A stretch of DNA of 64,000 nt from Raillietiella orientalis. Lineage: Eukaryota. The DNA is taken from the NCBI GenBank assembly GCA_036172245.1, contig JAYWIR010000001.1, positions 3,286,001 through 3,350,000 of the forward strand, in the 5' to 3' direction. Positions 12,049 through 62,229 of the stretch are shown here, one piece after another. The notes below the pieces were generated by a model that had not been told where the DNA came from, did no database searches, and saw only the letters and a program-made list of their open reading frames with translations. Made by a program: the position numbers and the translations under genes. The first letter of the stretch is position 1, and each line of letters opens with the position of its first letter.

Positions 12049-13004
12049 ATGAGCCAAACGTGTAACAAGAAAGATACAGAAAGTCAAACTCAAAGAGTTA
12101 ACATTACCCAGGATCTTCTATCTTTATTTGAATGCCCTGTGTGCTTTGAATACATCTTGCCTCCTATTCATCAGTGCAGTCAAGGTCACCTTATATGCTC
12201 ATCATGTAAACCAAAGGTAAGTGGCGATTCATTATTAATTTTGTATTTAAGAACATACAGATGATTCAATGCCCTACATGCCGGGAAGAATTGGGAACCA
12301 TTCGTTGCCTAGTCATGGAAAAAGTAGCTGATACCTTGTTGTTTCCATGTAGATATGCTGCTCAAGGCTGCTCAAAAATGTTGCCTCGTGTCCATAAGCT
12401 GATTCATGAGAAAAGACATTGTGCTTATAAACTGTTTGAGTGCCCCTATCGTTTCATAGAGAACTGTGCAGATTGGGGAGGTAGCAGAGATACTGTTCGC
12501 TTTCATCTTCTGGCAGCCCATGCTGAAAATTTCTGCAAAGAGCATGGTGTTATGGAACCTTTGCAGGGTCCCAGAGTGTTTTTATTACCATTTGTAGATG
12601 TCTTGGATTATAATGCAGAGACTGGCACCACGGCTTGGATGTGGACATATTTGCAATTATGCTTTGAGCATACTTTTGTTCTGAATCTGTATTATATTCA
12701 CAATGGCAAGGGAAATGTGCATTTTGCTACTGTTCGTCTAGTGGATACTATCAACTCTGCCCGCCATTTTCGTTATAGAATTACTTTGGATGGTCCTCAA
12801 GGACAACTTGGGTATGCAGGAAATTGTCATTCACTTCATGAGGATATTTGGGAAATCTATGATAGTCGAGATTGTTTGTCCTTTGATGCAAGTACTGCAC
12901 ATCGATTCCGTTCTCAGATGCCTGGTGTGAGACGGCAAGTATTGCAATTAACGGTAGAATTAGAACAGAATGAAAAAGATGAAGAAGATGTTATACTTAA
13001 CTGA
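12049..13004 (+). CDS. Seven-in-absentia (Siah/SINA) family E3 ubiquitin ligase, divergent paralogue; exons 12049-12216 and 12261-13004 (303 aa)
   Basis: [39 protein letters not shown] is joined across a 44-nt phase-0 GTAAGT...ACAG intron (12217-12260). Then [10 protein letters not shown], two SIAH zinc fingers and a substrate-binding domain ending [19 protein letters not shown] at 13262-13267. Confidence 0.93.
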
Positions 13005-18328: not shown

Positions 18329-19380
<1,052 letters not shown>

Positions 19381-22600: not shown

Positions 22601-23029
22601 GGCTTGCAGTCGCTTTGAGCGCTTAGGAATTTTGTTCCTCCCTACACATTTGTGCGTTGTCCTCGATGATCCCTCCTGTTCTTTCTCAACGTCGCCTGAA
22701 GCGACGCGGAGAAAAGCTCACTTGCCTTTGCTCCTTCTTCTTCGATTGTCCAAGACATCCTTCCGTTTGAAGCGTCCCCGAGAAGCCTTCGGCGAAGATT
22801 TCGCGTGAATCGAGGTCAGGACGAGGATCGGAAGGTCGCCCTGTCTCGATCTGCCGTGTCCGTCCGGTTTCATCTACAGTCATGGCCTACGATGACCCTG
22901 TGTTTTGCTGATCCGAGGGTGAGGACCAGCTGCAACTCCGATCCTGCTTGCAGGACCGAACTCAAGGAAGGCGAGGAGAGCACTCTTTCGCGAGCCGAGA
23001 GCCCTCCCCGTCTCATTCTTCCTCTGTTC

Positions 23030-23630
23030 TTTTTTCTTGGTTCTCAAGGAGTGCTGTAGAACCGTTCGCCTCCTCAGGGGTCGCCCACGAAGCTCGTGAA
23101 GCTCGTCCACGCCACCTTAGGGTGTAAGTAACCTCTACAAGTCAGGGAGTAACCTTGGAGGGACCACCTATGAATTCGGGAAGGCTCCGGAGGAAGGAAT
23201 CCGTCCCTCATGCTTGGGAGGGAACCCCGAAGGAAACCCTCGCCATGGTTGTCGCCGGAGGGAGCGCTCAAGGGAACCGCTCCTTGTGGGTGCTCCTCTG
23301 AGAGAACCCCGAAGAGAGCAGCGAGCTTCTTACACTCTGGAGAGGAGCCCCCCGAGGGGATCATCAACCAGCTCCATGGTACGGCTCCCTTTTCACAGCC
23401 GGAGAGGATCCATGATTCCGGGGAGGACCCCGTAGGGACAATTTCCAATCCCGGCCAGTCAACGGAGGCTTCCACCAGTGCCGCACCTGAAGCCCGTAGG
23501 CCGACCAACAGCGGGGGAGAATCAACCCAAGATGCATCCATTTCTTTGACGTCCATGCTTCCTCGGGCGGGATTCGAACCCGCTACACTCTATATAATGT
23601 GTGGAGACCCAACGTGGCTCTTCGTATGCA
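23030..23630 (-). mobile_element. SINE-like family, copy A (tRNA-like head, internal repeats, conserved 3' block, A-rich tail)
   Basis: B-box GGTTCGAATCC at 23580-23570. The block TTGGTTCTCAAGGAGT...TCCACGCCACC...TATGAAT..GGAAGGCTC.GGAGGAAGGA.TCCG is shared with the copies at 25.3, 39.5 and 62.2-62.6 kb. Confidence 0.7.
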
Positions 23631-24781
23631 CGCACTCAGGGGAGTGAAGAAGTGAAGGATGGTGGAGATGCTGCTAACTCTTCTTACCGTTCGTTCTCCC
23701 GACCGAGTCTTCATGCTCGGAAGTCACCGGCGCGGAAGGAATCTTTCCAGGAGCTTAAGGACGATGGGTCCATTAGGACGTGCTGCACTGCCTCGGTCCC
23801 ACGTGGCTCTGTAAGCAATCGATGGTGAGCGGTAGCTGTAAAGCTGTAAGCGGATGCAATTGACGGAGCTCGAGTCCCCCCCTCCCCCCCGCGATGTCTT
23901 TCAACCAGCTGCTTCATCTCCTCTCCGACGTTTCTCGTTTCATTTCATCCGCACCTGAATTTCTTCAGGGGACTCCGCGTGGTGGTTGCAGCCAACTCCG
24001 TCGCTAGGAACTCCAACGCATTCGTTGCGGGAGCTTGGAGATTCCTTCGCCTGACAGTGAGGCGGTCCCTTTGTCCACTACTCCGTGGGAGGCGGCTGTC
24101 CCGACGCAGCTGGGAGGGAGCCCAGTGAATGAGGAAGGCAAGTTGGACCCAAAACGGCAAGACGCGTTTTTTTCCTTCCATCTGGAATTCACCTGAGGAG
24201 GGATTTGCGCGGACAGAGTGGAATGGCACTCGACTGATCTTCCTTTCCGTGGACCTTCCGTTCCTTGTGTTCCTGCGTGACCGGGGAGGGTTCGAGCCGT
24301 GCCCTGAGAGCTTCCGGGAGTTTCTAGGCACCAAGTGGGCCGGTTCCACGGAAAAGGGTTGGCCAACCGTGGAAGGGAATCCTGCAGCGTGTTACACGGA
24401 TGCGCAGCACACGCTTCGGCGCCATTCACCGGTCCGTCGACGCTTGTAACCATGGCGGTAATGCTGGTGACGGCGACAACAGACGACGTAAATGGGGAGG
24501 GGGAGAGGGGAAGTCGCTTCAAAAACTTTTCTGATGAGGAAATTTTGGAATTAGGGGACCGAGCAGCCATTTTGCGTCATCGGAGTGTAGCGAGATGAAG
24601 GAGGTTAAGAAACGCAGTTGGTCCAAGAGGAAGTGGTTCCCGTAGTTTAAGAAACGTTGTTTTGGTCTGTGGCACACGCAATTCTGGCTTGCTCTTGCGC
24701 GGCTCTGGTGGTGCTTGTTTGTTTGCTTTTTTCGGCGGAAGCAGAAGCAGCAGCGGGGTGTATTGGCCAGGAAGGTCGTTG

Positions 24782-25163
24782 GCTGGCCACCGGGTGGTCG
24801 CTGATCTTTGGCTGGTCAGCTGGTCTCCGTGCCGTCGTCTGATCTTCAAGAGATCGCCTGATCTTCAAGTGTTCGTCAGGTCTTCGTCATCTCAGACCCG
24901 AAGATCCTCATCTGGTCTCCGGGTGGCCTACTGATCTCCATGTCGTCGGCTCATCCACAGGTGGTCGACTGATCTCCAGGAGGTCTACTGCTCTTTGGAC
25001 GGTGGTTAATCTTCAAGTGGTAGTCTGATATCCGTGTCATCAACTGATCTCCGGGTGGTCAGCTGCTCTTTCGGTTATCGGCTTATCTACGGAGTGTCGT
25101 CTGATCTTCAAGTGGTCGGCTAATTTTCGGATGATGGACTAATCTTGTAGTGGTCGGCTGATG
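24782..25163. repeat. Degenerate 19-bp minisatellite, ~20 units, consensus CTGATCTTCAAGTGGTCGG
   Basis: In-register units such as ctgatctttggctggtcag (24801), ctggtctccgtgccgtcgt (24820), ctgatcttcaagagatcgc (24839), ctgatcttcaagtgttcgt (24858). Confidence 0.85.
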
Positions 25164-25284
25164 TTTGTTAGACAACGAGCAAATGCGGATTGCCAGAAGG
25201 CGGAGGAAGTGGTTTATCCGTATCAAGGGTCACTTCGGTCCATCATTTCCTCCCGTTAACTTGTCAAGGGTCACTTCGGTTCGC

Positions 25285-25545
25285 CACGTACTCAAGAACC
25301 GTTCGCCTAGGGATCCTCGAAACTCTTTCACACTCACCACGCCAGTCGAGGGTGAGTGATAGATGGTACCGCGGGAGGGGATCACCCTATGAATCCAGGA
25401 AGGCTCTGGAGGAAGGAGTCCGTTCCTGTTGGAGCTGGGAAAGAACTCTGAAGGGGACCTCTTTCCCATTCTCTCCTGAGGGGTCTCTCGAAGGGGGTCA
25501 CTCATTTTTTCTCCGATTTCCACCCGGACACGTCGGGCCTTTCAT
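25285..25545 (-). mobile_element. SINE-like family, truncated copy B (3' block plus internal repeats)
   Basis: AGAACCGTTCGCCT...CCACGCCA...CACCCTATGAATCCAGGAAGGCTCTGGAGGAAGGAGTCCGTTCC nearly matches the reverse complement of 62380-62425 and copy A. Confidence 0.7.
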
Positions 25546-25589
25546 TAAAATTTAAAATAACCTCATAAATTGTGATAGGACACGCGGTG

Positions 25590-26400
25590 TTCCTACCACA
25601 CTCAGTTTGTCCGTGGACCTGCCTGGTAGCCGGTGCGCAGACCGGCGGGGTTCACCTCGACAGCGGAGGGGGATGAGACAACAAAAATAAAAATACGGAG
25701 GAAATAAAAATAAATAAAAATCTTTGGGAGGGTCGCGAAGGGACCCCTGTCTTCTGGAGGGGTCTGCATCCTTTCCAGGATGTCAGCTAGGTCCGTTCGA
25801 ATAGGTCCCAGATGGTGTCATTTCGCCGCCATCCTCAGAAAGCGAACTGCGAACCGGGGAGCCTCCCTCCCGTTTCTTCCTCTGTCGGCTTCGTTCCAGG
25901 CCGCCACAATCCCCCGATGGCAGCAAAGCGCTGCTGGGGCTGTGGCTGGCTGCAGGGCATCCTGCACGAAGAGGAGGCGTGAAACGTCCCTGGAGGTGCC
26001 AACCGGGACCTGTTCCTAAACGTTCCCATAGGATCCGGAGGACAACACAGCCCACTAGCAGGTGCAGGAGGGACTCCTATTCCCCGCACCTGTGACGACA
26101 GTCTGGGCTCGCTCTCCCCAGTGTCCAGTGGTGTCGGCGTGCGTTGCAGGTAAGACCCCGGTGCGACAGCAGAAGTGCCGACTCCCGACACTTTAGGAGA
26201 ATGCTGCTGCTGTTCTTGAGCACTGGGGGGTCACTCCAGGTCTTCGCATGGAATACCGAGCAGCTCTCTCCAGAGCTATAGTCCTCGCGGAAGGGCACTC
26301 GGAGTCGCAGCATCCGCCAGCTGCCCCATGGTCCATCCACTCATCAGCTCCCGCCTGCCTGCAAGATCTCAGGAGACTTCCTAACTCGGTGTCTGGATGC
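25590..26400 (+). mobile_element. Related long copy E: degraded head on +, ORF remnant on -
   Basis: 25764-26110 is an inverted homologue of 26817-27158. The head-like TCCGTGGACCT...GACCGGCGGGGTTCA (25610-25655) matches 24246-24298, which keeps a GGTTCGAGCC B-box. Right boundary approximate. Confidence 0.5.
25764..26029 (-). pseudogene. Broken copy of the element-internal ORF (one frameshift, one TGG>TGA)
   Basis: ATG GGA ACG at 26029, then after a frameshift LFVQDALQPATAPAALCCHRGIVAAWNEADRGRNGREAPRFAVRFLRMAAK*HHLGPIRTDLADILERMQ; the stop is at 25820-25818. Confidence 0.55.
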
Positions 26401-26479
26401 TGCCAAGTGCCCTCTTAGGAAAATCGTAGTTAACGCGAGGGTCCGCTCTGCTCACGCGATCATGTTTGGACTATCATGG

Positions 26480-27485
26480 TTGTCTACGAAGGGAAGCCGG
26501 AAAGGATCCGCTCCTGGAATTCCTTCCCTGGAGGGCAGCACCCTCAAGGGAACCGCTTCTAGTTTCCTCCTATGAAGAGTAACTCCGGTGGGATGCTTCC
26601 CAATTTTCACCGAAGAGCCGCTCCGAAGGGAGCAGCGCACTTCACACTCTGGAGAGGTATCAGTCCGTCAGCTCCATGGCCCGCGATGGAGAGTCCCCCC
26701 CGGAAAGCGGTGGGAGAGGGAGAGTTCCATCTGCACAATCGGAGAGTAACCTCGAACCATCATTCGGCTCCTTGATTCTGATTCCTGGAAGGACCCCAGT
26801 CGTCCACTCCCAGTCCCAGCCACTAGGAGGTGAGGGAATCCTTCCCGCGCCTCCTAGTGGACTGTGTTGCCCTCCGACCCCTTTGGGGACGCTTGGCCAC
26901 GACCCTTGGAACCCCCGGAGGCAACGCCAGAGACGTTGGCACCTCTTCCTGCGCGACGCCCTCACGCCGGCCGTATGTGTAGCAACACTTTGTTGCCCAC
27001 GAGGCGGGACCGTGGCTGCATGGAGCAATGCCAGAGGTGGCCAGAACGACAGGGATGCCATCTATTCTGCTGTTCTCTTCATGAGGGGGATAGCGTCAAG
27101 ATGGCTCCATCTGGGAACCATAAAACATGAACCTGCCGGCATCCTTACAAGGATGCAGAAGATGCCCACCAGCACCAGCACACAATGATCCCTTCCCGAT
27201 CCCGGCAGGCTCCTTTTCGTATCCATAAGTAACGTGGCAGGATCAGACGTCCTGCCACGACATGTAGGTTTAGAAATAAACGTCCTGGCGTGACCGGGTG
27301 TCAACCAGCTTCCACCATTGCCGCATCCGAATATAGGCCAACCGGCGTCATCTTGAGGGAAGAAGTCGAACCAACGACGCACCGGTTTCTCTGGCGTCGA
27401 TCCTTCCCCCGGTTGGAGATTCGAACCCGCGACGCTGGGTGCAACGTGCGGAGGCCGCAGACACACGGCCTCCGACGCGTGTCGA
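26480..27485 (-). mobile_element. SINE-like family, long copy F with an internal antisense ORF
   Basis: Head GCGTCGGAGGCC...GCGTCGCGGGTTCGAATC (B-box 27427-27418) is homologous to the heads at 38.5 and 40.3 kb. Internal GGAAAGGATCCGCT / AAGGGAACCGCT repeats and TGATTCCTGGAAGGACCC are shared with copy D. Confidence 0.7.
26676..27188 (+). CDS. Element-internal ORF of unknown function; conserved part from ~26883 (~100 aa)
   Basis: Open frame, ~50% aa identity to the 25764-25973 remnant over 72 codons, with two codon-sized indels and an excess of third-position changes. Followed by a 10-bp hairpin (27233-27259) and AATAAA (27275-27280). Confidence 0.5.
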   Translation: MARDGESPPESGGRGRVPSAQSESNLEPSFGSLILIPGRTPVVHSQSQPLGGEGILPAPPSGLCCPPTPLGTLGHDPWNPRRQRQRRWHLFLRDALTPAVCVATLCCPRGGTVAAWSNARGGQNDRDAIYSAVLFMRGIASRWLHLGTIKHEPAGILTRMQKMPTSTSTQ

Positions 27486-29605
27486 TACGAACAGCTGTTG
27501 CAAACAAAGGAGCTTCCAGCTGGCGCAACCGTTTCGTAGGCTTTCCTTCCTTCCGTCCCTCTTTTCTTTGCGCGGGAATACATGCGCACGCTCGTACAAG
27601 CGCTGCACGTGTGCCTGAGGATGGTGCTCAACACGTACGCACGTCTGCACGTGTTCCTTGATTGATTAAAGAGGAACCTCTGCTGCCCAGGGAACACGGA
27701 AGTCACAAAGCCACCTCTGGTGAGCAACTCGTTCTTCCACTCCCAGTCGACCGCCGTATCGTGCAGCGTGTTTGTTTTGCTTGTCCTCAGTTTCTCTTCC
27801 TTTTTCTAATGTCCCCTTGCTGGATCTGCGTGAGAGCTAACGTCATTCACCCTTCTCATTCTTTGATCTTCAACATTTTTTGTGTGTGTGTTTTCGATAC
27901 AGGGAAATTTCTCTCAGTATTCGAAATGTCGAGTTTCAGTGCCAAAGATTTCTTCTGTGCTCGCCGGAACTATGCGTTTCGCAATTCCCTTTCAATAACT
28001 GCTATTTCGTAGGATACAACACACCCAAGCGTTCGTAAAAGACTGCCAGAAGCCTCAGCTTTGCTCGAATTCCTGACGTCCTCTTTGTTTGGTTCCTGCA
28101 ACCCGAGTTTGCTGCGCCCTTTTGCCCGATCTTGCACGTGCCATTGTGGGCCTCGTGAGCCAGCAGGCCTCTCGTTTGGATGACCTCCGCAAGATTTTAC
28201 ATCTTTCCTCCGATGGCCTTCCAGGATTTCGAATTTCACAACGTCTTCCTTCTTGAATGGAGGGATTTTCCCAGTGTGCGTCCCCCGCCCCCCTTTCCCG
28301 TACTTTACGCAGGAGTTGAGAACTCGAAAATCGCGAAACTCTCTTACGCCTCCCTCTTACTCTCTTACGGTTCCCTAGACACGCGTACCTCATCGCAAAG
28401 GTTTTCGTCTTAGAAGATCTGCAGGAAATTTTCAAACAAAACGCTGACTCCCATGCGAGCAGCTTCTTTGGCAAACCGGTTGCTAACACAGCTATTCGAA
28501 TATCTCGTCTAAGCTGCCGGAAAATAGATGATTGTAATCGCTCGCCCTCCACCTACGTCCGTTGCAAACTTTGATGAGATACACACCCGGGAAAGCACAT
28601 GCTGCTGATGGCAGGGTTACTACGTCCCAGATCAGTTTTCATGCAATGTTCGACCTTGGAGCCTCTCCGCGAAAGAAACAGCAATGTAGGTTTCACGTGC
28701 AGGGATGGGAAACTTGAAGGTGCAGGGGGTACGGCCTCACCCTCGTCTCTGTGTTCAACACAAAGTCTCAACAGCATCAAAAGTACGCACTCTTTTCTAT
28801 CGCCGTGTGAGATCATCGTCAGTAACATCTGCTGTCATCTGTTGATAATTGGCATTTGCGGAACAGAGTTGTCCCTGTGATGGTAGCGGTCACCACAGGC
28901 ATTCTTGAATTGCGGATGTCACTTGAGTGCCAGCAGGTTGCATTTCGAAAGCTGTCACTTCCCGATATCCTCCCCTGACGTGAACGTGTAGGCGGATACC
29001 AGTCGTGGGATAGCCCGCCGCACTCCAGGTTCAACAGAAGGATGAGGAAGGATGAAGTCCTGCACGAAAGTCAAGACTTAACGGAAATCTGCATCCCCCT
29101 CCATGTGCACAAGGACTTGTTAAGTGCAAAAGGAATCAAAGAACACACTGTCTTCTTCAATGTGGTAGGTTGCACTCTTAGAAACGGAAGGGGATCCAAA
29201 TTAATGCGATGGACCTTAAAGGAAAATCATCTACCAGGGGCAGTCAACAGGAAACGGAAAACCTATGCCCGGACCGTGTGTCACAAAATGGAACATCGGA
29301 TTTTGATTGCTGTGATCTGGCCATATGCAGCCATGTTTGATGGGGAATATCAAAAAGCCTTCTAGCAAAATTACCCACACGATTCGTTTCCTCAGTAACG
29401 AATGGATCATCGTCCGTGGTTCAGACTGGGATGTACAAACCTGGGAAAACAAAAGTAAGATGGGCTTTTGTGTCTTTTACCGTCGTTTGGTTAACTATTA
29501 ACTTGACCTGCCAATGTGTTTTTTTTTTAAGATAAAGTTTTTTCGCAAGATAAGTCTCTTTCTTTGTCTTTTCGCGAGTGGGAACACTGAGAAGATCTCA
29601 AATTG

Positions 29606-29858: not shown

Positions 29859-30681
29859 GGCCGCGATAATCAGACCTGATTGTTGCCTCCAATGATTTGT
29901 GATGTGACCATTCCAGCAGTTTTATGGTCCTTCGCGCATTCGACTTCGGGGCGTACAATTCGTACCGAGTGTACAATCTCCGTTGAGTGCTGCATAACAA
30001 GTACCGTACCCATTCACTCAAACTGCTTTTTTTCCCTTGGCATGTAATTTACAGCTCACCAACATTTTGCCTTATTGCAGCCATTCCCAATTTCGAGTTG
30101 CTTCCAATCTTCCAATTTTCTTCCATTCTTCGTATTCATTCATTCATTCATGAAAAAGAAAAACACAAGAAAAAAAAAAAAACTTTTGAAACTTTACGTA
30201 AGAATGACCTTTAATGATGATCAAAGATCCATCGGTTTCATTTGGAGACCAGATTTAGATTTGCTGAGATAATTGCTCTTTGAAGACAACAGGGCATTTG
30301 AAATGAGATAGGGCATGCAAAGAACGGACGGAACGAACCCTCAGAAGCAATGATTCCAATGAGATGCTTGAAAATGTGTATTGTCTACTACACTACTTAC
30401 GAAACAGTGACATGTTTGAAAGCTGCTTGCTGCACCACGGAGTCCCAATGAAAATAATCACATCTAGAACGAATCATTGCAGAGTTCTGCAGCCAAGGTC
30501 TGCTAATCCTCCAATCGTTTCTTTATTTTGACCCTAGTCCGTGCTGCAAATTTCGGTCCTACATATTGTACTTCTGTTGTTAATGGAAAACATCCATAAA
30601 TCTTCGAGAGGTTTGTGTTATTTCGATGGTAAAACGTGAACTGCAACATTTGGAGGCATGGTTGCCAAGATAGGAATACTA

Positions 30682-30737
30682 ACAGAGAAGATTAGCATGG
30701 CCCCTGGGCAAGCATGGCACCCAAAATCGTGAAGCGT
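30682..30737 (+). ncRNA. U6: U6 snRNA core fragment, probably a pseudogene
   Basis: ACAGAGAAGATTAGCATGGCCCCTGGGCAAGCATGGCACCCAAAATCGTGAAGCGT matches the metazoan U6 core as I recall it at ~52/56. ACAGAGA box and AGC triad intact; no 3' T-tract and no canonical 5' stem-loop. Confidence 0.85.
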
Positions 30738-33700
30738 CATCAATCCGGGGTGCTGCTTTGCTTCTAATGGTTGAGGTAAACAAACACATTTGAAGCGGAC
30801 AAGATGGGAGAAAGCGGGAAAATCAACACGTGATCTGGACCAGCTACGAAACAGTGCCGGAAGGCTTTAGTGAGCGTCATGAACTGCAAGAGAAATCACA
30901 GTGAATCTTTCAAACGAAGCGCTGCAAGCAGAATTTGTAACAAGGACTGCATAAGAGGAAGGCAAGGTCGAATGCAAAATAATCTTTACCCAATCACAAA
31001 AGGATGGACACTTGCTTATCTTCATCTTTTGATGCAAGAGTATTCTCGTCATTAACAAATACACCTTTCGTTACAAGAAAACCGCAGGATTCTGCTTTCC
31101 TGCCTATCCTTATCAGCTGCTCTCAGACAGTATCTACGACATGAGACGATGAGTGCATGCCAAAAAAAATAACGGTGAATTTTTGCCAAACGAAATTTAT
31201 CGAAGAATGCGGTGCTTTTTTATGTACAATACGACTTGTTGTGTGAATACGAATACCGGAAGAGTTTAACACAAAAAAATGTTAAAGTGGGGAGGAGCCT
31301 CTGCTGAGATCTGGTTGGTGACTCACACTGAAGTGTTGGTTTCCACAACGTTATCAAACCGATGAGCAGGATGCAAAAAATCATCCTCAGCTGCTTTCCA
31401 GCGCGCAAAAACAAAAGTCCGTCAGCTGTTCAGTTGTTCTGTTCACCTTAAGGTGAATAAAATTTACCTTGCTATTTGTACTTGAAATAAACAGACTCGC
31501 GAAGGAGGCTGCAGGTTCCTGGAAACTCGAGAAATGCCACTTTGCAGGTTGGCGGACGCCTTTGGGTTGCGCACGCTGGTCGTGTTTGAAAAATACACTC
31601 AAACGAGGAGATAACCAAGCATTAGTTTAAAAGAGGCTTTAGGTTAAAGTCAGTATTGCATTCCAATCAAAGCGTAAAATTCTGCTAGGAAGGAGATTCG
31701 AGGGCGTTTCTTTCCTTCCGTGCTTCCAGAGCAGCATCCGCAACAGTTTGTCTATCGTCCTGGTTTCCAGACCATCAGACAAACGGATGAAGATCCCTAC
31801 GCATGTGTTTATCAGAAACGAATTGAAACATTTCTTGAAATTTTGCACCTGTTTTCCAAGTTTATTAAAACTTTCAGCGCAACCAAGCAACAGCTAAAAA
31901 AGATTCAAGAATTAAGATAGCCGTACGGAAGAAGTATGCAAGAAATTGGAGAAGTTGTCTATTGCTTTCGAGGATCCAGAGTCTTGTATACAGTGTTTCA
32001 TCACCATCGAGAGCAATAAAAAATGTCTCTTGAGGCGAAGGAAGCAATATCTAGGACCAGTTCCTGCTACGGTAAGCGGGACTTCCCTCTTTGCGTTAAA
32101 TCCTTCAATCCATTCATTTTTCTTTTCCTTTTCGTTTTTCTTTTATCGCTGCTTGAGGCATGGAATGAAATAGTCGGGTCACCTCGGGGAGGGTCGCCTC
32201 CGCGAATCCAGGCACGAAACTGTCATCGAAATTAAGCAATGGCAACTAAGGCGAATTCTCTGCATCGGAACAAAATGTTCTTGTGCATCCTTCGGAAGAA
32301 GGGCGTCCTTCCTGCCATGGCCGTCTTACGGAGTGCTCACACATATTACGAGGCGCATTACACGCTCGCAATTCACGACGCACGCTGTAATTTATTAACA
32401 GTAGCAGTCGTGCTATGATTTATTTGAAAACATCGGATGGGAACTCTTGCCGAACCAGGCACAGCAAGCTGTTCCTGCAACAAGCCAGTCCTGCGCCTTC
32501 GGCACTCAAGAGGGCAGAGAAAAGTACAGAGATTCAACAGCAGCAACAGCGAATCTTTTCTCGCTGAAGAATTTTCGAGAACAAGGGGAAAAACAACTAT
32601 TCTTGCGGTGGAGTGGAAAAAGGAAAGGCAAAAAGTAAATAAATAACCTGAATGTTGCGAGGTACACATTTACGGCCTGCAGCTTCTTAAATCTCCCATT
32701 AGCGGGTCCTCACAGAGTGGGGGGACAACGAAACCATGCGGCCCCACAAAGAGAAAAAGCCTGCGAGGTTTGGATGGAAGGAAAACCTCGGCTTGAAGAG
32801 CTTCTCGAGTCGCCTATTCAACCCGTCAGTAATGTGAAGCGTTCTTGCACCGATGGGGGATTCGTTGCCACGCCCATTGGGTATGTTTCTGTAGCTTGGC
32901 TGAGCACGTCGTTGCATCTTTGCATCTACCAACTCTTTCTGTGAAGTGGTTTTGCTGCCTCCGGTCACCGCGCATTCCAGAGGTACGTGATGACCATAGG
33001 CAAAGGAATAAGTGGCTTCTTGCACGGTGAACGCGCGGGAACGGAGAGGACAAGCTGGAGGAGGCGAGGGGCTCTCAGCCACCCTCGTCGGTGCTTCCAG
33101 CGTGTCCGGGAAGACGCTCGAAAGTTCGTCTGGAAGACTGTCCCATGCTATCGTATCCACGCGCACAAGATGGTGGAAACTTTTCTTTTTCCCTATTTGG
33201 GAACAAGGAAGAGGAAGTAGGGAGAGGGAGGAAGAAAGGGAGGCGCCGGCCTTTGGCTCCCGTCGCGGGAGAAGGTGGAAGCAGCAAAAGGGGAACAAAA
33301 CCCGAGCGGTTGCTGTCGAGGTTTGGGGAGGAAGAAGGGCGAGAGTTGCTCCCGGCGACCACGAGAGGAAGGAGTGCAGGAGGAAGGCGTCGGGGTGGCG
33401 CGGAATCAAGGAAACGTCCCTCGGGAGAGCGAGGTAGGAGACTCCGGGCTTCCTCAAGGGGGGTCAAGGAAGACCAGGAGAAGTCCGGATGCGCGCAGGG
33501 CATGCGGATGCCTCTGATAGGGAAGGCCGCTAAGCATTCTCGGTGGTAGGAACTGGGACATCTGACGGGGCGAGTGCCTCGCATCTCGGAGGATGGAGGC
33601 TGCAGAGCAGTGAGGATGAGCTGCCCCGCGCGACTGATCGTCCACCTTCCTCCCACGTCTCCCTTTTCCGCCCTGAAGTCTCTATCGTCCATCTTTTCCC

Positions 33701-34229
33701 CCTCCACACTCCGCGCCTCGGTAGGAAGGCACCGCAGACCTGGTTTTTTCCGGTGTGGGGGTCCGGGAGATCCTCCGGCATCACTGGAGTAGGAGGACGC
33801 TGCCGCCGCCTTCCGAGATTCTCCGCCTCGTGCAATCCTGGGAATTGTCGGGATGTGACGACTTCTCGGGTGCTGTGGTCCTGGTCTCAGGGCTACAAAC
33901 CTCAGCGCCCGTCGGAGCTAACTGCAGGAATGCTGCTCCCCCCCACCTGGCCATCGTCCTCCACTCCGCTCTTCGAGGAGTCCCTCCGGCTGCCGCAGCA
34001 AAGAAGGGAGAGTATCCTACTGCAGAGGTTCTTCCTTCTTCTTCCGCTCTCTCAAGAAGGGGAGGGATTTCCCTCTCTCCTTGCCCCTTCCTCGCCTGTC
34101 GCTTCCCTTCTTTTCCACCTCTCCCTCCCCCCTGGTCTTCTTCCAACTGAACGACATGATGTGGACCTGCGCCCTCTTCTTTCAGTCATCCCTTCCTCCG
34201 TCTCTTCGAGCTGTCGTTTCGTCGACGAG

Positions 34230-35909
34230 ATGGAGATGCAGTACCGGAAGGGCGAGGACAGCGTAAGTGTCTGGCGCGGGGCGAGGCAAGGACGGCGCGT
34301 GGTGGACACGCGCTTCACCTTACAGGTCCTGGAGCTCTCCCTGAAGGACGCCGAGAACGTGGTTTTCCGCAACCGGCGCTACGAGCTGGTGGTGAAGGAT
34401 GTCAGCGACGACCTCCTCCTCCCGCTGTCGGAGGCGGCAGCGGACGATGGAATGGGAGGAGGAAGAGGAAGAGCGGAGGACAAGGAGGATAAGGAGGAGG
34501 AGGAAGATGAGGGGGAGAAGAAGACCAAGGTGTGGAAAGGAGGCGGTCCATCCTTCCGGGTGCGGACGGGGCTGGAAGCGGAGAAGATCCGCATCCACGT
34601 GGAGAAGAGGCGCTCCCACGAGCGCTACCTGCGAGCCGCGGAGATGCGTCTGGACTCGCTGAGGAGATCCGGAGGCGGAAGCCGCGCAGGATCGGGAGGA
34701 GGAGGAGGGAAAGACTGCATCCAGGTCGACCTGACGTCCAGCGAGGTCCTGCCTCCGCTGCTGTTCAAGGAGGAGGAGGGGAAGGGGGAGGAGGAAGTCG
34801 CTGCTTGCAGCCCGGGCCCCGCGCACGAGACAGCGTCGGCTGCCACTGCGACCCCTGGCCTCCCCTCCGCCGCAGCCGCGCATCACCGCTGCCGGAGATC
34901 CCCAGGAGGAGAGTCCTCACCGTCCCAGGCAGCAGACGGAGGCGACGACCCTGCGGACCTGCCCTGCTCCCTTGAAGGTGGGAAGGGAGAGACGCCAGCA
35001 GAGGCGCTCGTCCTTCTCCTCCCTCGCCTCCAGAGCCCCCTCCTCCATCCCGTGCTCGCTGCCGCGCCCTTCGCCTCCCCGGAGGAGCGCAAGGCCGCAG
35101 GAGGGACTGCCAAGTGCTCCTCCAGCTCGGAGGACCGCTGGGGCAGCCGCTGCGGAAGCGAGGACCTCTGCTCGGAGCGCAAAGGGACGAAGAGTGGCGT
35201 TGTCGCCCCGGGGGGCGGCACGCCGCCGCCCGCGAGTCGCCTTCGCTCTATCCCGCCCCACCTCACCCTGAGGGAGCTCCTCTACCCGCGGAGGATGCGC
35301 AACCTCATGGACAGTGTCGACCTCATCCTGAGCGCCCTGGGGGCCGTGAAGACGCGAGGCCAGTTCCCGCTGAACGAGCGCTACCTCACGTGCTTTGCCG
35401 GCCTCGCGTGCCACCTGGAGAGGAATGTCCAGGACTACCTGTCGCAGATCATGGAATGGGGCGACCCCTCGTACGACTTCGGCGGCTACCTGAACATGGT
35501 GGCGTCCCTCGAGAGGCTGCAGTCGAAGATTTCGAGAGGGGAGCGCGGGTGGTTGTCGTCCCGGGAAGGGACTGACCGCCGCTGGCATCGTGCCGCCTCT
35601 GACCTGAGCGCCCTGATAGTGTCCCTGGGGCGCGAGCTCAGGGAAAACCTCGAGGTGTTGGTCTGCGAGTGCTTGCAGACTTCCCTCTTCGGCTACGCCG
35701 CGTTCCCAGGGTACACGAAGCTGCCCCTCACCTGGGACGTGGAGAGAAAGCTGCAGAGGAGGCTCCGGGACCTGCTCCAGGCCAGGGCGGACTCCTTCCC
35801 GGCCTTCCTCACGCAGCTCTACGCCGCCGAGTGGATCGAGGCGGCCCTGAGCGGGGCGCAGCTGTCCGAGGACAAGGCGACCCAGACGGACCCCGCAGCC
35901 ATCGCGTGA
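34230..35909 (+). CDS. Orphan protein: N-terminal beta-rich (PH-like?) segment, disordered linker, ~200-aa helical C-terminal domain; true 5' end uncertain
   Basis: 3' part of the 788-aa ORF, with very high GC3 from ~34211. A pyrimidine tract and TTTCAG acceptor at 34185 precede it. A probable in-frame 63-nt intron GTAAGT...CCTTACAG lies at 34263-34325. Confidence 0.7.
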   Translation: MEMQYRKGEDSVSVWRGARQGRRVVDTRFTLQVLELSLKDAENVVFRNRRYELVVKDVSDDLLLPLSEAAADDGMGGGRGRAEDKEDKEEEEDEGEKKTKVWKGGGPSFRVRTGLEAEKIRIHVEKRRSHERYLRAAEMRLDSLRRSGGGSRAGSGGGGGKDCIQVDLTSSEVLPPLLFKEEEGKGEEEVAACSPGPAHETASAATATPGLPSAAAAHHRCRRSPGGESSPSQAADGGDDPADLPCSLEGGKGETPAEALVLLLPRLQSPLLHPVLAAAPFASPEERKAAGGTAKCSSSSEDRWGSRCGSEDLCSERKGTKSGVVAPGGGTPPPASRLRSIPPHLTLRELLYPRRMRNLMDSVDLILSALGAVKTRGQFPLNERYLTCFAGLACHLERNVQDYLSQIMEWGDPSYDFGGYLNMVASLERLQSKISRGERGWLSSREGTDRRWHRAASDLSALIVSLGRELRENLEVLVCECLQTSLFGYAAFPGYTKLPLTWDVERKLQRRLRDLLQARADSFPAFLTQLYAAEWIEAALSGAQLSEDKATQTDPAAIA

Positions 35910-37045: not shown

Positions 37046-37050
37046 GGATG

Positions 37051-37123
37051 CGCCCGGACGGGGGCTCGAACCCCGGACCGTTAGGTTAAAAGCCTAACGC
37101 TCTACCGACTGAGCTATCCGGGC
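37051..37123 (-). tRNA. trnK-UUU: tRNA-Lys (anticodon TTT)
   Basis: GCCCGGATAGCTCAGTCGGTAGAGCGTTAGGCTTTTAACCTAACGGTCCGGGGTTCGAGCCCCCGTCCGGGCG, 73 nt. All four stems pair; no encoded CCA. Confidence 0.96.
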
Positions 37124-38280: not shown

Positions 38281-38546
38281 TTTTTTTGTGCATCAGGATC
38301 CCTCCGGAATGGGAGGGTTCTCTCCTTCACAACCGGAGGGGAGCTTCCACCGCTTGATTACTGGAAGGAGCCGGAGATCGACTCCCATTTGTCCCGGTCC
38401 TCATAGGGGGCATCCGGTTTCAACGGCTCCCAGTGCCGCACTCGGATGAATGCAGGCCAACCAGCGTCATCTTGCGGGATGAACCCGCGACGCTTGGAGG
38501 TGCCACGCGCGGAGGCCACCGTAACCACACAGCCTCCGACGCGGGC
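38281..38546 (-). mobile_element. SINE-like family, short copy G
   Basis: Head shares GCCTCCGACGCGGGC exactly with copy D and GAACCCGCGACGCT and GCGTCATCTTG with copy F. Ends in an A-run on the minus strand (~38281-38287). Confidence 0.7.
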
Positions 38547-39328
38547 GATGACAAGCGAAGTTAAGATCATCATCGACGGACTTTTCCTGATTTTATCAAA
38601 AAACTTAATACAATGCTCGTCTCGAGAACAGAAACTTTAGCAGCATAGCAGCAAGCATTGCAGTTTCTCGTTTTCATCTAAATAGAAGCGAAAGTAAGGA
38701 CTACCTTATGGCCACTTTCTAAAGGAGCACATTCTCACATGAGTGCGGCAAAGACAACGTTATGTAAGACGTTCGTAAAACTTACAGTTGATGCAAGTGA
38801 AAAACGCATAGAAGAGACGTATTTGTCTGATTAGGAGAACCAATCCTAAGGAACCCCTTCTGAGAACGCGCATGAGAAATATACGAAGTTGGAAACGGAA
38901 GAAAGGAATAGACAAGACATGAAGAGAAATTCAAAGTGCACATAGAATCATGAGAAGAAGGGAAAAAATTAATGAGGTTGCGAATTTCCGCTTTAACTTG
39001 GGTTTTTCAATGTTCTCGCAGGAGGCAGGGACCCCATGTGAGCAGAGATCTGCGCACCCTTCTGTCGACATTTTTGTACAGAATTTCTGCCAGGGTTGTA
39101 ATCAGGAACGATTTATTCCTTCCCCATTTTCATATAGGGAGCACCACTGCTCAGTTCACTTCGACATGAGAAGAAAAGTGGACCAGGATCTTTGAACTTT
39201 ATGTATGCAGGCTTCCGCGTACTCCACAGTAGCAGGAAGCTCGAGTGGTGTGTTTCAATTGTGGAGTGTGGAAGACCACAGTCTTCAATAGTGTGACACA
39301 TAATCAAACCTGCACTATTATCCAGACA

Positions 39329-40395
39329 TTTTTTTTTTTTTTTTAAAGGCCAGTAACGACCTCACGAGGAGATCGTTTCTATTGGCCTAGGATGATGGAA
39401 ATCCTTGGGTCCTTCTTTTTTCTTCTGTCTTCGCTGTTTTTTCCTTCCAGATTATTTTTTTTTGTGGGCTTTTTTTTTTTTTTGGTCCGCTAAGTACCTC
39501 AGAGTCGGTCGCGTGCCTCGCGGCGCACGTGGCTCTTTAAACACACTGTTTAGTTTCCACGCCACTCCCCTGCGACAACCCGCAAGGGGGTGTGTAATTC
39601 TTCAGGACAGGGGGAACCCCGGGATGGGGATCCGCCCTGTGAATCCAAGAAGGACTCGGAGTCCGTTCCTCTCACGCTCGGGGAGGGATCACCTCCGGAC
39701 GGGGGGGGGATCGCACTTCCCACCCTGGTTGTCTCCGAAGGGGAACCGCGAAGGGAATCTCCTTCCTCATTCTCTCCGGAGGGACCACCCCCGAAGGGGG
39801 GGGTGCTCCTCTCCACTTCAACTTCTTCGAAGGGAACTCGGAAAGGATCCGCTAGTAGGGATTTCTTCTCCGGAGGGAACCCGCAAGGGAACCGCTCCTG
39901 TTCACTCCTCTGAAGAGAACCCCGAAGGGACGCTCCCGAAACTCAGAAGGGGCGCTGCAGCTTCCCGCAGGGAATCGCTCTCGCTTGCTTCCTTGCACTC
40001 TTTGAAGAGGCGACGACTCGGAGGGTCCCCCGCAATTGGGGGGTCCGCTCCTTTAAACAACTGGAGAGGTGCCCGTGAGGGCTCCTGCTCCATCTTGAAA
40101 CCGAAAGTGGTCCCCCGGTGAGGGGGGTCCGCTCTCCGTTGCACGACAGGAGGGGGAACTCCCCAGTCCTTGATTCCTGGAAGGACCCGAAGGTCGACTC
40201 CCATTGTTCCGGCCTTCATCGTGCCACGCCCGAATGTCTCTGCCAACCAACGCCATTGCAGGAGAAAATCGGAACCCAACGACACAGTGACGTCAGTTTC
40301 TGCAGAAGTATTCCATCCCGCGACGCATGGTGCCACGCACGGAAGCCTTAACCACAAAGCCTCCGACGCGGGCTTTAAAAAAAAAAAAAAAAAAA
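39329..40395 (-). mobile_element. SINE-like family, full-length copy D with target-site duplication
   Basis: Flanked by TATCCAGACATTTT at 39319-39332 and 40396-40409. tRNA-like head GCCCGCGTCGGAGGCTTTGTGGTTAAGGC, 5-6 internal ~45-bp repeats (~39730-39960), conserved 3' block, terminal hairpin (39347-39388) and A16 tail. Confidence 0.8.
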
Positions 40396-54381: not shown

Positions 54382-57300
54382 TCAGTCCCTGATGTCCCTG
54401 GGTGCCTCCGTGCCAGGAGTCAGGGGTCTTCCTTCTTCCCCGAGGAACAGCTGTTCCAGGGGCAGAAGGTAGGACTCTGTGGTGGGAGCGGCAGCCAGTC
54501 TGAAGAGGAGGTCAAGTGAGGCTGTTTCGTCTTCTCGGAAGGAGGAAAAGGGGGTGGTGGCTGTCTTCGGAGGCCAGGTGGTGGACTCGTCTTCGTCGTC
54601 CGCTGCCTGCGATAAGGTCTGTTCCTTTCCGACCCGGCTTGCAGCCTCTGCATTCTTTGGCTCAACCGAAGACGGTAGTGGAGGCTGGGATGTCCCGGAA
54701 GGGGGAGAAGGGGAGGTTCCCCCTTTTCTCGGGTCTCCCGGGAGAACTGAGTTCTTTTTCTTGGGTAGCTTGTCGGAGCTCCTGTGGTCATTCATGTCAT
54801 GGGCGTGCGGACCACTGCTCTTCTCCGCCTTCTCCTCTTCCTGTGGGCTTACTGTCGACTCCTCCTCCTCCTCCTTCTCACCCCCTTCCCTCCCGTGGTG
54901 TAGGCCTGAGGGTCTGCCTAAGGGTGCGGCGGGGAGCTTCGGCGAGACCCCGCAGACCGGGACGTACCGCCTCGTGGTGGTGCGGATGGAGGTGGACCAG
55001 GGCGGCAGTAACGGTCGCAAGGGTGTGGGCGCGTTTCTCGTGGAACGCTGAGTCACCTGGACCTCGAGACGGGCTCTCGAATGCGCAGTCAGCGACGGCG
55101 GCGGTGATGACAAAGAGGAGGGCGGGAGGTTCGCTTGCTCCTTGGAGGCTGCGGCGGTGGAGCTTCTCGGGCGAAAGAAAAGATCCGGGACGTGGGCGTC
55201 GCTGCTTCGCGGCGCCAGAGGACCCTTGTCCTTCCCCGAGGAAGAAGGGAGGTTCCTGGCGCGGATCCTCTCGAAGAACTTCCTTTGGCGGGCCGCATGG
55301 GCGGACTCGGTAGTGGTCGCCTCTGCCACCTCCGGAGAGGAGGAAGAGGGAGAAGCGGAAGCAGCGGAAGCGGACGCCTCCGAATCGGAGAGCAGCTCAC
55401 CTATCCTCTTGCTCAGCATCTCCGGAGGAAGAGTATGGGTCTGAGACTCGGTCTGCCTTTCCTGGATGCCGGAGCGGGCACCCCTAAGTCCCGAAGGTCC
55501 CACCATCCGGTAGTAAAGGTCCAGAGTGTAGGGAGGGAGGTCGGCGGATCCCCTCTGGCGCTCCGAAGAAGGGAGGCTGCGGTGGTACAGATCCAGCTGC
55601 TCCAGGAGCTCCGGGTAGGAACTCTGGTAGGCGCGGTACAGATCGAGTCCCTCTTCCGGGTCCTTCCGGGGACGGCGCTCCTCCCCTTCGGGACCGGGAG
55701 GTCCAGGGGGAGGGAGAAGGTTGTCCTTGAACCAGGAGAGCGTGTCCTCCTCCGCGAGGGGTCCTCCTCCGGCCTTCTTTCTCTTCCTCCCTTCGTTCCC
55801 TGAGCCGCTGCCTGCGGAGGCGGCGACCGGGACGTTGGGGGAAGACCGGAGGCTCTCGACCAGGCTGCTGCTGCTCCCGTGGAGCCGCCTGCGTGCGGCT
55901 AGCTCCCCGGGATCCGCGGCCGCCGCAGCCAAGGCGGTCTCCCGCGCAAGCTCCCCGTCCCGGGTCGGCTCCGAGACCTCGGGTTCCCCGGGAGCGGTGG
56001 CAGCGGTCGGGTGATCGCCGACGACGAAGTGCGGGCGGAAGGTGGGAGGCTTCCTCGGGTGAACTGTGGGGGAGGAAAGGGGGGAGGACGGTTGCAGGGA
56101 GACACGGCGCCGCCCCCCGGGAGCGGGAGCCGTGGACATCCCTCGGAGGTAACGAGACCCGTTCCCGGAGGCGCGAAAGGAGTACGAGAACCTGGGACCG
56201 TCGTCCGGAGGCGGAGGGGCGGAGGTCGGCAGCCGCCGGTCACCGTCTGTCGTGTCCTCCGTTGTCTCCGGAGGACCACCACCGCGCCTCTGTTGCTGTT
56301 GCTGCTGCAGGCGCCGGTGGCCGGCGCCGCCTGGCCTCTTCAGGCGACGACGGCGGCCGCGCTTCCCGCTACCTCCCCCACGTGTCGCAACCGGCGGTTG
56401 GGACGCCCCTGGGAAGCCGTCCGTGGTCGTCGCGACCTCGGCGGCGTGCTTGAACGTGCGGACGGCCTCCCACTCTCGCAGTCCTCCTCCTCCTCCCCTG
56501 GGAGAGGCGGTCGATGAGGTGGAGGACCAGTCAGGGGGTGCACGAAGGTCGCCGGCCGGAAGGAGCCTTGAACCTGGGAGGCCCGAGAGGAGGGAAGCAG
56601 GGACACGGGGGCGCTCCCCTCGAGAGCTGCCGTCGTCTTCCGGCTTTCTCCCCAGCCGGAGGACTCCCTCGGAACTGGTGGAGGGACCAGGGTCTCGCGT
56701 GGCAGCAGCCGTGCGCTCCCCACTGCCAAAGGGGAGCGACTGGGGTGGGGATGACTCTTCGTTGTCATTCCGGTCCTCGGTCTCTTGCTGCTGCTGCCGT
56801 CTCTTCCCCTTCCTGGAGAGAAGCTCCCCTTCAGGATCATTGGGGCGATGGGTCCTCCAGACGAAACTGCCTCTCTGGGCACCCTCGAAGACGGTCGCTC
56901 TGTCGATGCGGAGGGAATTCTTGGAGACTGCTTCCGGGTTCTCCTTCCCGACCAGACCGCCAGCACTGCCTCGACTCCAGTTGCGCTCACGCTGTTGCCG
57001 CGAGAGCATTGCCAAGGGAACCGGGCCGGTGAGGTCTCTCCCTCGCGGTACATCTCCTCTGCTGTGCTGGTCGTGCATATCGATCTCGGGCTGCTGCTGC
57101 TGCTGCTGTTGCTGGCGATTGCCAGGATCTTCTTGAGGTCCTTTGGGAGGGTCGGGAGTTTCCTCCTTCTGCTGCTCCTTCTCAGAGACCAAGGAGGGAC
57201 CAGGAGTGGATCTGTCCTTCGACCCCTCCTCAAGAGCTTCTTCTTCAGGAAGGACAGTCTCTTCCGAGAGTTTCTCCAGAGATGGCGCCGCTGCGGGCTG

Positions 57301-61000: not shown

Positions 61001-62229
61001 TGTCATCATCATATTCACGACTAGCATTTTAGGATATTTAGAATGATATTTGAGAACATTGATAATTAACGTTGAATATTAAGTCGTTAAATATAAGACT
61101 ACAACGAAGCATCTATGGCAACTTAGAAGTTCATAGTAAAAACGGATTACCGAGATTAAGGTACTTCAACGGGTATCAAATGATTATGGGAAGCTACAGC
61201 TCTTCAGTCGCGGTTTGTACATTACATCAGTCTTTCATCCGTAAGCTGGATCCCATGGAAAGTATTCCATTCCATGGATTTTGGATCATACTGTTACAAC
61301 CCCGGTTCCCACACCCAGCATAGTAACCATACATGAAACATACGTGATTTCTCCATTCTTGAAGTTGAGGTGCGAATCATACAAGAACATGATCACGTCT
61401 AAAAAGTTTGGATTCCGGGCGGAGAGAAAACAGGGAAATAAGACTCGATGAAGTAACCTCAGGAAGATGTCCAGAACTCTTAGAGTGCACTAAGACAAAA
61501 AATATGAACTGGACGATACGCTTTGGGAAATGAACGCTTTTATCCTTTCTGACTAAGCCATCGCCTAGATAACACAAGCTGCTTTATGTCTGCCGTCGTT
61601 TTAATCGTTCAGACCACTAACGGCCAGCGAAAGAAACATTCAGGAGATGGGCCGCAGGAGACACGTAGCCTTTCCATCAGATCCCAAACATCTTCCCCAT
61701 AAAAACAAGAGAATAGGGAAATTCGAATTAAGGAAAACAGGATGCCAAAGCAGAACGCCGTGTTCCTTTCGAAGATGCATCCCACAGAGCAGAGACACCT
61801 CGTGGGATACTGCCGTGAGTTACGAAACTTGAGATATTTATCGGATGAGCTACATATTTTGACCGGGAGATGCACTTAAACGGTGCTCATTGACATCTGA
61901 AATTTCTTAACGAGAAGGCAGAGATTCCTTGAATGCAAACGGAACTATTCCCTATTCTAATTCTATTTTATCTTTTTTTTTTTGTTTTTAGTAGAAGGCG
62001 AAAGAATTATGCGTTATAATGGGGACCTTTATGTTTTTTCTTTTCTTTTTTGCGATCATGAATTGCAATGGCGTTGTCTTAGGGGACGGAATTTCACGTT
62101 CGGAGTAGGTAGAATGAAGAGGATGTGTTTTACACTAAACATATTGAAAGTTGGCACTCTCGCGGTGAAAACAGGAAAAAAAAAATTTCGTTTGGTACCA
62201 CCCACGGAGATCGTAGGCACAGAGAGAGA

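What the first reader, a model, noticed from the sequence alone, without database searches (positions are those of the whole stretch)
25764..27188. SINE-like element carrying a protein-coding ORF antisense to its Pol III head
Seen: 26943-27158 (+) and 25973-25764 (-) are homologous at ~65% nt. They translate as LFLRDALTPAVCVATLCCPRGGTVAAWSNARGGQNDRDAIYSAVLFMRGIASRWLHLGTIKHEPAGILTRMQ and LFVQDALQPATAPAALCCHRG-IVAAWNEADRGRNGREAPRFAVRFLR-MAAK*HHLGPIRTDLADILERMQ. My hand count over 70 aligned codons gives 18/22/34 mismatches at codon positions 1/2/3, 14 purely synonymous changes, and only whole-codon indels. In both copies the ORF runs opposite to the adjacent tRNA-like head. Copies A, D and G lack this segment at the same position. 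Known: classical SINEs are non-coding. Inference: the master element encoded a ~100-aa protein under purifying selection, which I cannot assign to any RT, gag or transposase family. This would be a possibly undescribed ambisense, tRNA-headed element.
Basis: partly seen in the sequence, partly recalled or inferred. Interest (0 to 1): 0.8.

Follow-up and report, generated by a model that had tools for sequence, protein, structure and literature searches.

The report
Separate repeat nested in a SINE
Two diverged, inverted copies of a multi-copy repeat in a eukaryotic repeat nest show a real protein-coding-like substitution pattern, but the repeat looks like a separate element that landed inside an old SINE, and both copies here are broken.

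Summary
R (26835-27202, +) and L (26077-25730, -) are 65% identical over 374 aligned positions. Over 70 codon pairs I count 18/22/35 mismatches, 15 synonymous changes and pN/pS 0.58.

A best-of-six-frames shuffle test gives P<=0.001. Nine control alignments from the window give P>=0.046. The coding-like imprint is therefore real. It is shared almost equally by the antisense frame with the same wobble positions, so the strand is open.

The "ambisense coding SINE" reading is not supported:
- Three other SINE copies lack the segment.
- In R it is a ~460-nt insert that splits an older SINE.
- The only verified SINE piece beside L is co-oriented with L's ORF.
- L's "tRNA head" fails the Rfam tRNA model.
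- In one public DNA run, contigs 97-98% identical to R's segment exist (two listed). Loose-end consensuses (five records upstream, three downstream) run into L-like, non-SINE sequence.

No start codon is conserved. L has a TGA at a conserved Trp codon, and R has a 4-nt deletion at the N-terminal edge. No Pfam family, PDB relative or confident fold was found. The only relative is one 87-aa ORF call.

Best reading: dead copies of an unclassified repeat whose masters once coded.

The parts
26821..27281 (+). R copy: a ~460-nt insert that splits a SINE. It holds the X core plus an R-specific 3' piece, Y. Boundaries are good to about +/-5 nt.
   Evidence: R(-) is colinear with SINE copies A, D and E on both sides of this stretch, and they lack it (junctions read by eye).
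26835..27202 (+). X core, R copy: the part homologous to L.
   Evidence: 242 of 374 identities to 26077-25730(-). Run X1 holds contigs 97-98% identical to parts of it (records 4 and 8).
26943..27158 (+). R's stop codon is at 27186-27188.
27203..27281 (+). Y: R-specific tail of the insert. It has an 11-bp hairpin at 27234-27258 and AATAAA at 27275-27280.
   Evidence: Read. Not shared with L or with the X1 loose-end consensus behind 27175 (compared by eye).
25730..26077 (-). X core, L copy. It continues 5'-ward (higher coordinates) into an extension that is also repeated in run X1, up to about 26350.
   Evidence: One search shows depth in the bins up to 26351, and the loose-end consensus before 26834 matches L 26078-26107(-) by eye.
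25764..25973 (-). The 70-codon homologue of the coding-like stretch in L. It has an in-frame TGA at 25818-25820 where R and P0002 have Trp, and an upstream in-frame TAG at 26016-26018.
25780..26019 (+). Rival frame: an ATG-started 79-codon ORF on the opposite strand of L that shares the wobble positions. R's homologue (27142 downwards) has a TAG at 27062-27064.
27282..27481 (-). R SINE, 5' part: tRNA-related head (B-box-like GGTTCGAATCT at 27417-27427) and proximal body.
26483..26820 (-). R SINE, 3' body after the insert. It is 3'-truncated relative to copy A.
   Evidence: matches to 39824-39956, 40171-40214, 23219-23345.
25288..25506 (-). SINE 3' fragment next to L, on the same strand as L's ORF.
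   Evidence: 65.7% over 242 positions to copy A, E 2.3e-15. Also.
25558..25725 (+). Identity is unverified.
   Evidence: No Rfam tRNA match at E<=10. ARAGORN calls it only at the 80% threshold. It aligns poorly with the SINE heads.
23027..23650 (-). SINE copy A: reference copy without the segment, with an exact B-box at 23570-23580 and an A-rich 3' end.

Best explanation
The shared segment (X) is a copy of a separate multi-copy interspersed repeat, not an intrinsic part of the tRNA-derived SINE.

One copy (R, 26821-27281) inserted into an older SINE and split it. Read on the ORF strand, R is cut short at its 5' side relative to other family members. A second copy (L, 25730 to about 26350) is longer and belongs to a lineage about 35% diverged. 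It lies 0.75 kb away in inverted orientation within the same repeat nest.

A core of about 70-85 codons carries the imprint of purifying selection on a protein. I infer that this imprint was acquired while the two lineages evolved as active master copies, or as a multi-copy gene or transposable-element ORF of which X is the 3'-terminal part.

Both copies here are dead. L has a TGA at a conserved Trp codon and a TAG 15 codons upstream. R has a 4-nt deletion at the N-terminal edge. No start codon is shared.

Shown: the homology, the coding-like pattern, the split SINE, and the different flanks in another data set. Inferred: insertion by retroposition, and that the master copy codes.
For: Coding-like pattern:
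- 37 of 70 identical residues and 15 synonymous codons, against 22-25 identical residues and 0-6 synonymous codons in the four non-wobble-sharing frames.
- The best-of-six-frames test gives P<=0.001. All 9 control alignments give P>=0.046.

Separate element:
- SINE copies A, D and E lack the segment, and R is colinear with them on both sides of it.
- L's continuation is unlike any SINE body.
- The ORF is antisense to the SINE in R but co-oriented with the adjacent SINE fragment in L.

Run X1:
- 112 contigs were laid at >=80% likeness.
- Record 4 is 116 of 118 identical to R 26835-26952, yet its 107 upstream letters do not lie on R.
- 5 records give a loose-end consensus before 26834 that matches L's extension (by eye, about 22 of 26 positions).
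- 3 records diverge from R after about 27203.

A third copy, P0002 (87 aa, one contig of 2870 nt), keeps the same frame open at 53% identity to R and 58% to L.
Against: - Only two copies could be read as DNA, and no genome is held.
- X1 may be another species, and only 8 of its 117 contig pieces and 6 of 121 loose ends were shown.
- No target-site duplication, poly(A) or other retroposon tail bounds R's insert (read by eye).
- The 99 columns just upstream of the coding-like stretch are more conserved at the nucleotide level (73% against 65% identity) yet show no coding signal and have 8- and 4-nt indels. An ORF running far upstream is therefore not supported.
- The peptide has no Pfam or PDB relative and only low-confidence folds.
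- The shown X1 variants do not repeat the position-3 bias. They fall 2/4/7 by codon position in R but 2/8/4 in L (27 of the 40 variants shown, out of 150).
- The pair also has a strong consensus RNA fold, which offers another source of constraint.
Confidence: 0.5

Rival explanations
1. X is a non-coding, structured RNA/DNA module, either a separate repeat or an optional SINE module. Base-pairing keeps it similar, and the period-3 pattern is a statistical accident.
For: - The consensus fold of the R/L pair on the SINE-sense strand is -87.95 kcal/mol, z -6.15 against 150 column shuffles (0 reach it). The ORF strand gives -63.3 kcal/mol, z -3.38.
- Single-sequence folds give z -4.15 and -3.29.
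- 15 of 90 predicted pairs change on both sides and stay paired. One example is GCAAC/GUUGC in R against GCAGC/GCUGC in L.
- The conserved 'ILxRMQ' motif coincides with a conserved palindromic hairpin (CATCC..GGATG).
- No start codon is conserved.
- AF2 mean pLDDT is 58.7 and 51.7.
Against: - Base-pairing does not produce a 3-nt periodicity. The six-frame test gives P<=0.001 while all 9 controls give P>=0.046.
- The number of compensatory pairs is not above the shuffles (15 against a mean of 10.9, z 1.5, 15 of 150 reach it).
- The structure was derived from the same two sequences, so one search's controls lean its way.
Confidence: 0.2
2. The constrained reading frame is the one on the opposite strand, which is SINE-sense in R. 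This is the ATG-started 79-codon ORF at 25780-26019 in L.
For:
- It has more identical residues (39 of 69) and more synonymous codons (20) and a lower pN/pS (0.47).
- Its ATG is conserved in both copies.
- L is intact from ATG to stop.
Against: - R has a TAG at codon 27.
- AF2 is worse (pLDDT 51.7, pTM 0.21, against 58.7 and 0.39).
- No homologue was found among the 7 candidates.
- The conserved ATG is part of a palindrome that reads AGGATG on both strands.
- P0002 was called on the other strand.
Confidence: 0.12
3. One reading: a tRNA-headed SINE whose master copy carries a ~100-aa ORF antisense to the Pol III head.
For: - The coding-like pattern is real.
- In R the ORF is antisense to a SINE with a B-box-like motif 215 nt away.
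- L has a weak head-like stretch on the matching strand.
Against: - 3 of 3 other SINE copies that cover the site lack the segment.
- L's flanks are not the SINE, and its head is unverified.
- Orientation relative to verified SINE sequence differs between L and R.
- The flanks of near-identical copies in X1 are unlike R's SINE.
- There is no conserved start, and the copies are broken.
Confidence: 0.08

Closest known systems
Nested transposable-element insertions and chimeric SINEs (general knowledge, recalled, not from a call)
   Same: One repeat interrupts another. The host SINE is colinear with uninterrupted copies on both sides of the insert.
   Different: No target-site duplication or tail was found at the insert's ends. 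The inserted family is unclassified.
5'-truncated 3' ends of non-LTR retrotransposons (LINEs), whose last ORF codons and 3' UTR are scattered as short repeats (recalled)
   Same: - Copies share a 3' region but have different 5' extents (R against L and X1).
- A coding-like imprint ends in a stop and is followed by about 90 nt with a hairpin and AATAAA in R.
- The lineages are deeply diverged.
   Different: - No RT or endonuclease domain or any Pfam match.
- No poly(A) or microsatellite tail.
- The coding signal does not continue upstream.
- phmmer against 1.84 billion representatives found no long protein carrying this peptide.
tRNA-derived SINEs (recalled definition: Pol III A/B-box head, non-coding body, LINE-dependent tail)
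   Same: The host element is present in at least six pieces in 64 kb. It has a conserved 5' start, a B-box (exact in copy A) and an A-rich 3' end.
   Different: The heads do not reach the Rfam tRNA model even at E<=10. The ORF-bearing segment is not a constant part of the element.

Membership tests
tRNA-derived SINE (the host element) | tRNA-related 5' head with internal Pol III A and B boxes | tested here: inconclusive
   The B-box GGTTCGAATCC (motif recalled) is exact at 23570-23580(-) and has one mismatch at 27417-27427(-). Matches with up to 2 mismatches are no more frequent than chance, 20 against 19.9 expected. There is no Rfam tRNA hit at E<=10 on the heads. The 5' start CGCGTCGGAGGC is shared by R, D and E.
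tRNA-derived SINE (the host element) | Dispersed multi-copy, short, with an A-rich or LINE-like 3' tail | tested here: met
   Pieces lie at 23027-23650, 25288-25506, 26483-27481, 38320-38549, 39726-40370 and 62225-62559. A-rich ends are seen in copy A and in the 62.5-kb copy (I3). Target-site duplications were not examined.
   It is absent from A, D and E. L's flanks are not SINE-like. The X1 contig flanks are unlike R's SINE. A genome-wide test was not possible.
Protein-coding gene | Period-3 substitution pattern and pN/pS below 1 | tested here: met
   pN/pS is 0.58. The six-frame shuffle test gives P<=0.001, against >=0.046 in the controls. The strand is ambiguous.
Protein-coding gene | Intact ORF with a conserved start and stop | tested here: not met
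   No shared ATG. L has a TGA at 25818-25820 and a TAG 15 codons upstream. R has a 4-nt deletion, so its upstream frame is not shared. Stops lie 9 codons (R) and 7 codons (P0002) after RMQ, and L has none for the next 71 codons.
Protein-coding gene | Recognisable family, relatives or fold | tested here: not met
   Pfam found no family for 15 translations; two sub-threshold hits fell on other frames. The PDB profile search found 0. The only relative is P0002. AF2 gave pLDDT 58.7. Foldseek found 0 matches at E<=0.001.
Non-LTR retrotransposon fragment | Reverse transcriptase or endonuclease domain, 3' tail, target-site duplication | tested here: not met
   No Pfam domain in any frame of L 25717-26572 or R 26586-27805. 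No tail or duplication is seen at 26821 or 27281 by eye. The fragments are too short to exclude a LINE origin.

The most novel reading that the evidence does not exclude
X is a new kind of small mobile element that keeps its own ~85-100-aa all-helical protein under selection. That protein has only one detectable relative among 1.84 billion representative proteins. X can become fused into tRNA-derived SINEs, so some SINE copies carry a coding cassette on the strand opposite the Pol III promoter.
Probability: 0.12. Interest if true: 0.6.

Novelty: new member of a known kind. Interest (0 to 1): 0.25.

Why it matters
The evidence here points to the ordinary case of one repeat nested in another, so that rule stands.

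What remains mildly interesting is an unclassified, GC-rich repeat family in an AT-rich eukaryotic genome. Its core shows a statistically solid coding imprint but has no known protein relatives. It also shows a strong conserved fold. A genome-wide census could tell whether it is the tail of an undescribed autonomous element.

Tried and rejected
Searches for more copies or relatives:
- Whole-genome search: no genome is held.
- Cluster members of P0002: the database is switched off.
- Peptide and profile scans found no locus in metagenome contigs, viral contigs or genome contigs.
- A conserved 23-nt DNA pattern found nothing in genome contigs or viral contigs.
- nhmmer and tblastn in the window found only L and R.
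- The 200-aa R ORF found no homologue among 236 candidates. The phmmer search's second hit, P0003, is a low-complexity repeat protein that matches ORF residues 14-40, which lie in antisense SINE body. I judge it spurious.
- The antisense frame found no homologue among 7 candidates.

Sequencing runs: 1 run was listed, and no RNA holder was listed.

Protein-likeness:
- Foldseek of the low-confidence model gave only generic helical bundles, best E 1.3.
- Atlas hits scored <=0.80 and were unnamed.

Other ideas:
- ARAGORN at lowered thresholds gave 44 and 237 calls, which is noise.
- Reading L and R as the terminal inverted repeats of one DNA transposon is rejected. The interior holds R's SINE body, and near-identical copies of one arm occur alone in X1.
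- An LTR plus primer-binding-site reading is rejected. No tRNA-complementary site abuts either copy (by eye).
- CpG decay as the cause of the phase bias is rejected. Non-CpG mismatches still fall 12/16/24.
- The shown X1 variants fall 2/4/7 by codon phase in R but 2/8/4 in L. This is inconsistent, and only 40 of 150 variants were shown.

Literature: one search (tRNA-derived SINE + open reading frame + antisense) found 23 papers. I saw the listing and abstract openings of 15. None describes a coding SINE.

Full report
**Setting.** The window is eukaryotic. It holds a U6 snRNA (30641-30748) and one tRNA-Lys (37050-37123). It also holds a GAPDH gene on the minus strand, whose best PDB relatives are animal enzymes and which has one ~55-nt intron. 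No whole genome is held, so everything rests on the window, public protein libraries and one public DNA run. The finding lies in a GC-rich nest of repeats between about 22.9 and 27.6 kb.

- Self-BLAST pairs 25763-26077 with 27159-26835. A more sensitive search gives 242 of 374 identities for R = 26835-27202(+) against L = 26077-25730(-).
- Over 70 codon pairs I count 18/22/35 mismatches, 22 identical codons, 15 synonymous-only codons and 37 identical residues. pN/pS is 0.58.
- MAFFT and Needleman-Wunsch alignments reproduce the two 3-nt indels and 18/22/34.

**Is it more than chance?** The simple chi-square on phases is marginal: p=0.04-0.06, or 0.24 with cheap gaps. A stricter and fairer test takes the best of all six frames and compares it with alignments whose columns are shuffled within windows of 6, 12, 24 or 210 nt. 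It gives:
- P 0-0.0007 for residue identity;
- P 0.0003-0.0007 for BLOSUM sum;
- P 0.001-0.003 for synonymous codons.

Applied to 8 other repeat pairs of the window and to the segment's own upstream 99 columns, the same test never fell below 0.046. The four frames that do not share the wobble position behave like the null, with 22-25 identical residues. The imprint of coding-type selection is therefore real, even after allowing for about ten pairs to choose from.

It does not fix the strand. The antisense frame that shares the wobble position scores 39 of 69 identical residues, 20 synonymous codons and pN/pS 0.47.

**The ORF itself is weak.**
- R's 201-codon frame (26583-27188) is unremarkable. 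The 7-kb neighbourhood has 60 stop-to-stop frames of 70 or more codons, among them 170, 171, 190, 235, 247 and 268.
- Its first ~80 codons are antisense SINE body. The next ~40 are in a frame that L and the third copy do not share, because R has a 4-nt deletion just before 'LFLRDAL'.
- L has a TGA where R and P0002 have Trp, and a TAG 15 codons upstream.
- No ATG is conserved, and the stops fall at different places.
- The 99 columns upstream are more conserved (73% identity) but show no coding signal and carry 8- and 4-nt indels.

**Relatives and fold.**
- Pfam finds nothing for 15 translations in several frames.
- A profile of the three peptides finds nothing in the PDB.
- phmmer against 1.84 billion representatives finds one true relative, P0002. 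It is an 87-aa ORF call, a singleton on a 2870-nt contig, 53% identical to R and 58% to L. It is a third copy with this frame open, but it could only be found because the frame was open.
- Foldseek gives no match at E<=0.001.

**Architecture.** The host element is a ~600-nt SINE-like family with a shared 5' start, a B-box and an A-rich end. It is present in at least six pieces in the window. Its heads do not reach the Rfam tRNA model at E<=10.

R's SINE is colinear with copies A, D and E except for about 460 nt (26821-27281) that they lack. The segment therefore interrupts the SINE.

L is different:
- What follows its segment (26060-26500) resembles no SINE body.
- The only verified SINE piece beside it (25288-25506) lies on the same strand as L's ORF, the opposite of the relation in R.

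**Evidence from another data set.** One public DNA run (X1, coded) holds many relatives: 112 contigs were laid at >=80% likeness.
- Record 4 is 116 of 118 identical to R 26835-26952, yet its 107 upstream letters do not lie on R.
- Five records give an upstream loose-end consensus that by eye matches L's extension (26078-26107, minus strand) and not R's SINE.
- Three records diverge from R after about 27203, in a C-rich way that resembles L.

So the closest relatives of R's segment do not sit in R's SINE. There are caveats. X1 may be another species. Only 8 of 117 pieces and 6 of 121 loose ends were shown. The shown variants give inconsistent codon-phase counts, 2/4/7 in R and 2/8/4 in L.

**Another constraint.** The R/L pair has a strong consensus fold. 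On the SINE-sense strand it is -87.95 kcal/mol, z -6.15 against column shuffles. On the ORF strand z is -3.38. Several hairpins are conserved, including a palindrome under the 'ILxRMQ' motif and one stem with a compensatory A-U to G-C change. The count of compensatory pairs is not above the shuffles (z 1.5). Structure cannot create 3-nt periodicity, but it may explain part of the conservation.

**Verdict.** The carrier is most likely a separate, unclassified repeat, possibly the 3' end of a longer coding element, nested in and beside SINE debris. It is not an ambisense coding SINE, and both copies here are broken. The strand and the nature of the master element stay open until the genome can be searched.

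Noticed in passing
window 12261-13004, 18332-19258 against 33537-35906, 54385-58035: There are two very different codon-usage classes within 64 kb. GAPDH and a SIAH-like ORF have GC3 0.32. Two long ORFs without any Pfam family (790 and 1217 aa, low-complexity, with polyQ) have GC3 0.77 and 0.72, with the coding-type order GC3>GC1>GC2.
   Followed up: partly
window 27488-27600: The stretch just outside R's SINE head has a summed contig depth of about 320 in run X1, against 52 or less in every other bin. It may be a high-copy repeat. Nothing recognisable was seen in the sequence, and Rfam found nothing.
   Followed up: partly
window 24790-25166: A degenerate 19-nt tandem array (consensus near CTGATCTCCAGGTGGTCGA) lies between SINE copies.
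   Followed up: no
window 30641-30748 and 37050-37123: A U6 snRNA gene (57 bits) and a tRNA-Lys(TTT) gene. This tRNA is the only one that passes default thresholds.
   Followed up: no
window 18329-19359 (-): A GAPDH gene with a first exon of 27 codons, one intron of about 55 nt and a 309-codon second exon. Its best PDB matches are animal GAPDHs, 525 bits against 450 for the Toxoplasma enzyme (organism labels recalled).
   Followed up: partly
window 27234-27258: A perfect 11-bp hairpin (GTGGCAGGATC/GTCCTGCCAC region) lies about 20 nt before an AATAAA at 27275-27280, at the edge of R's insert.
   Followed up: no
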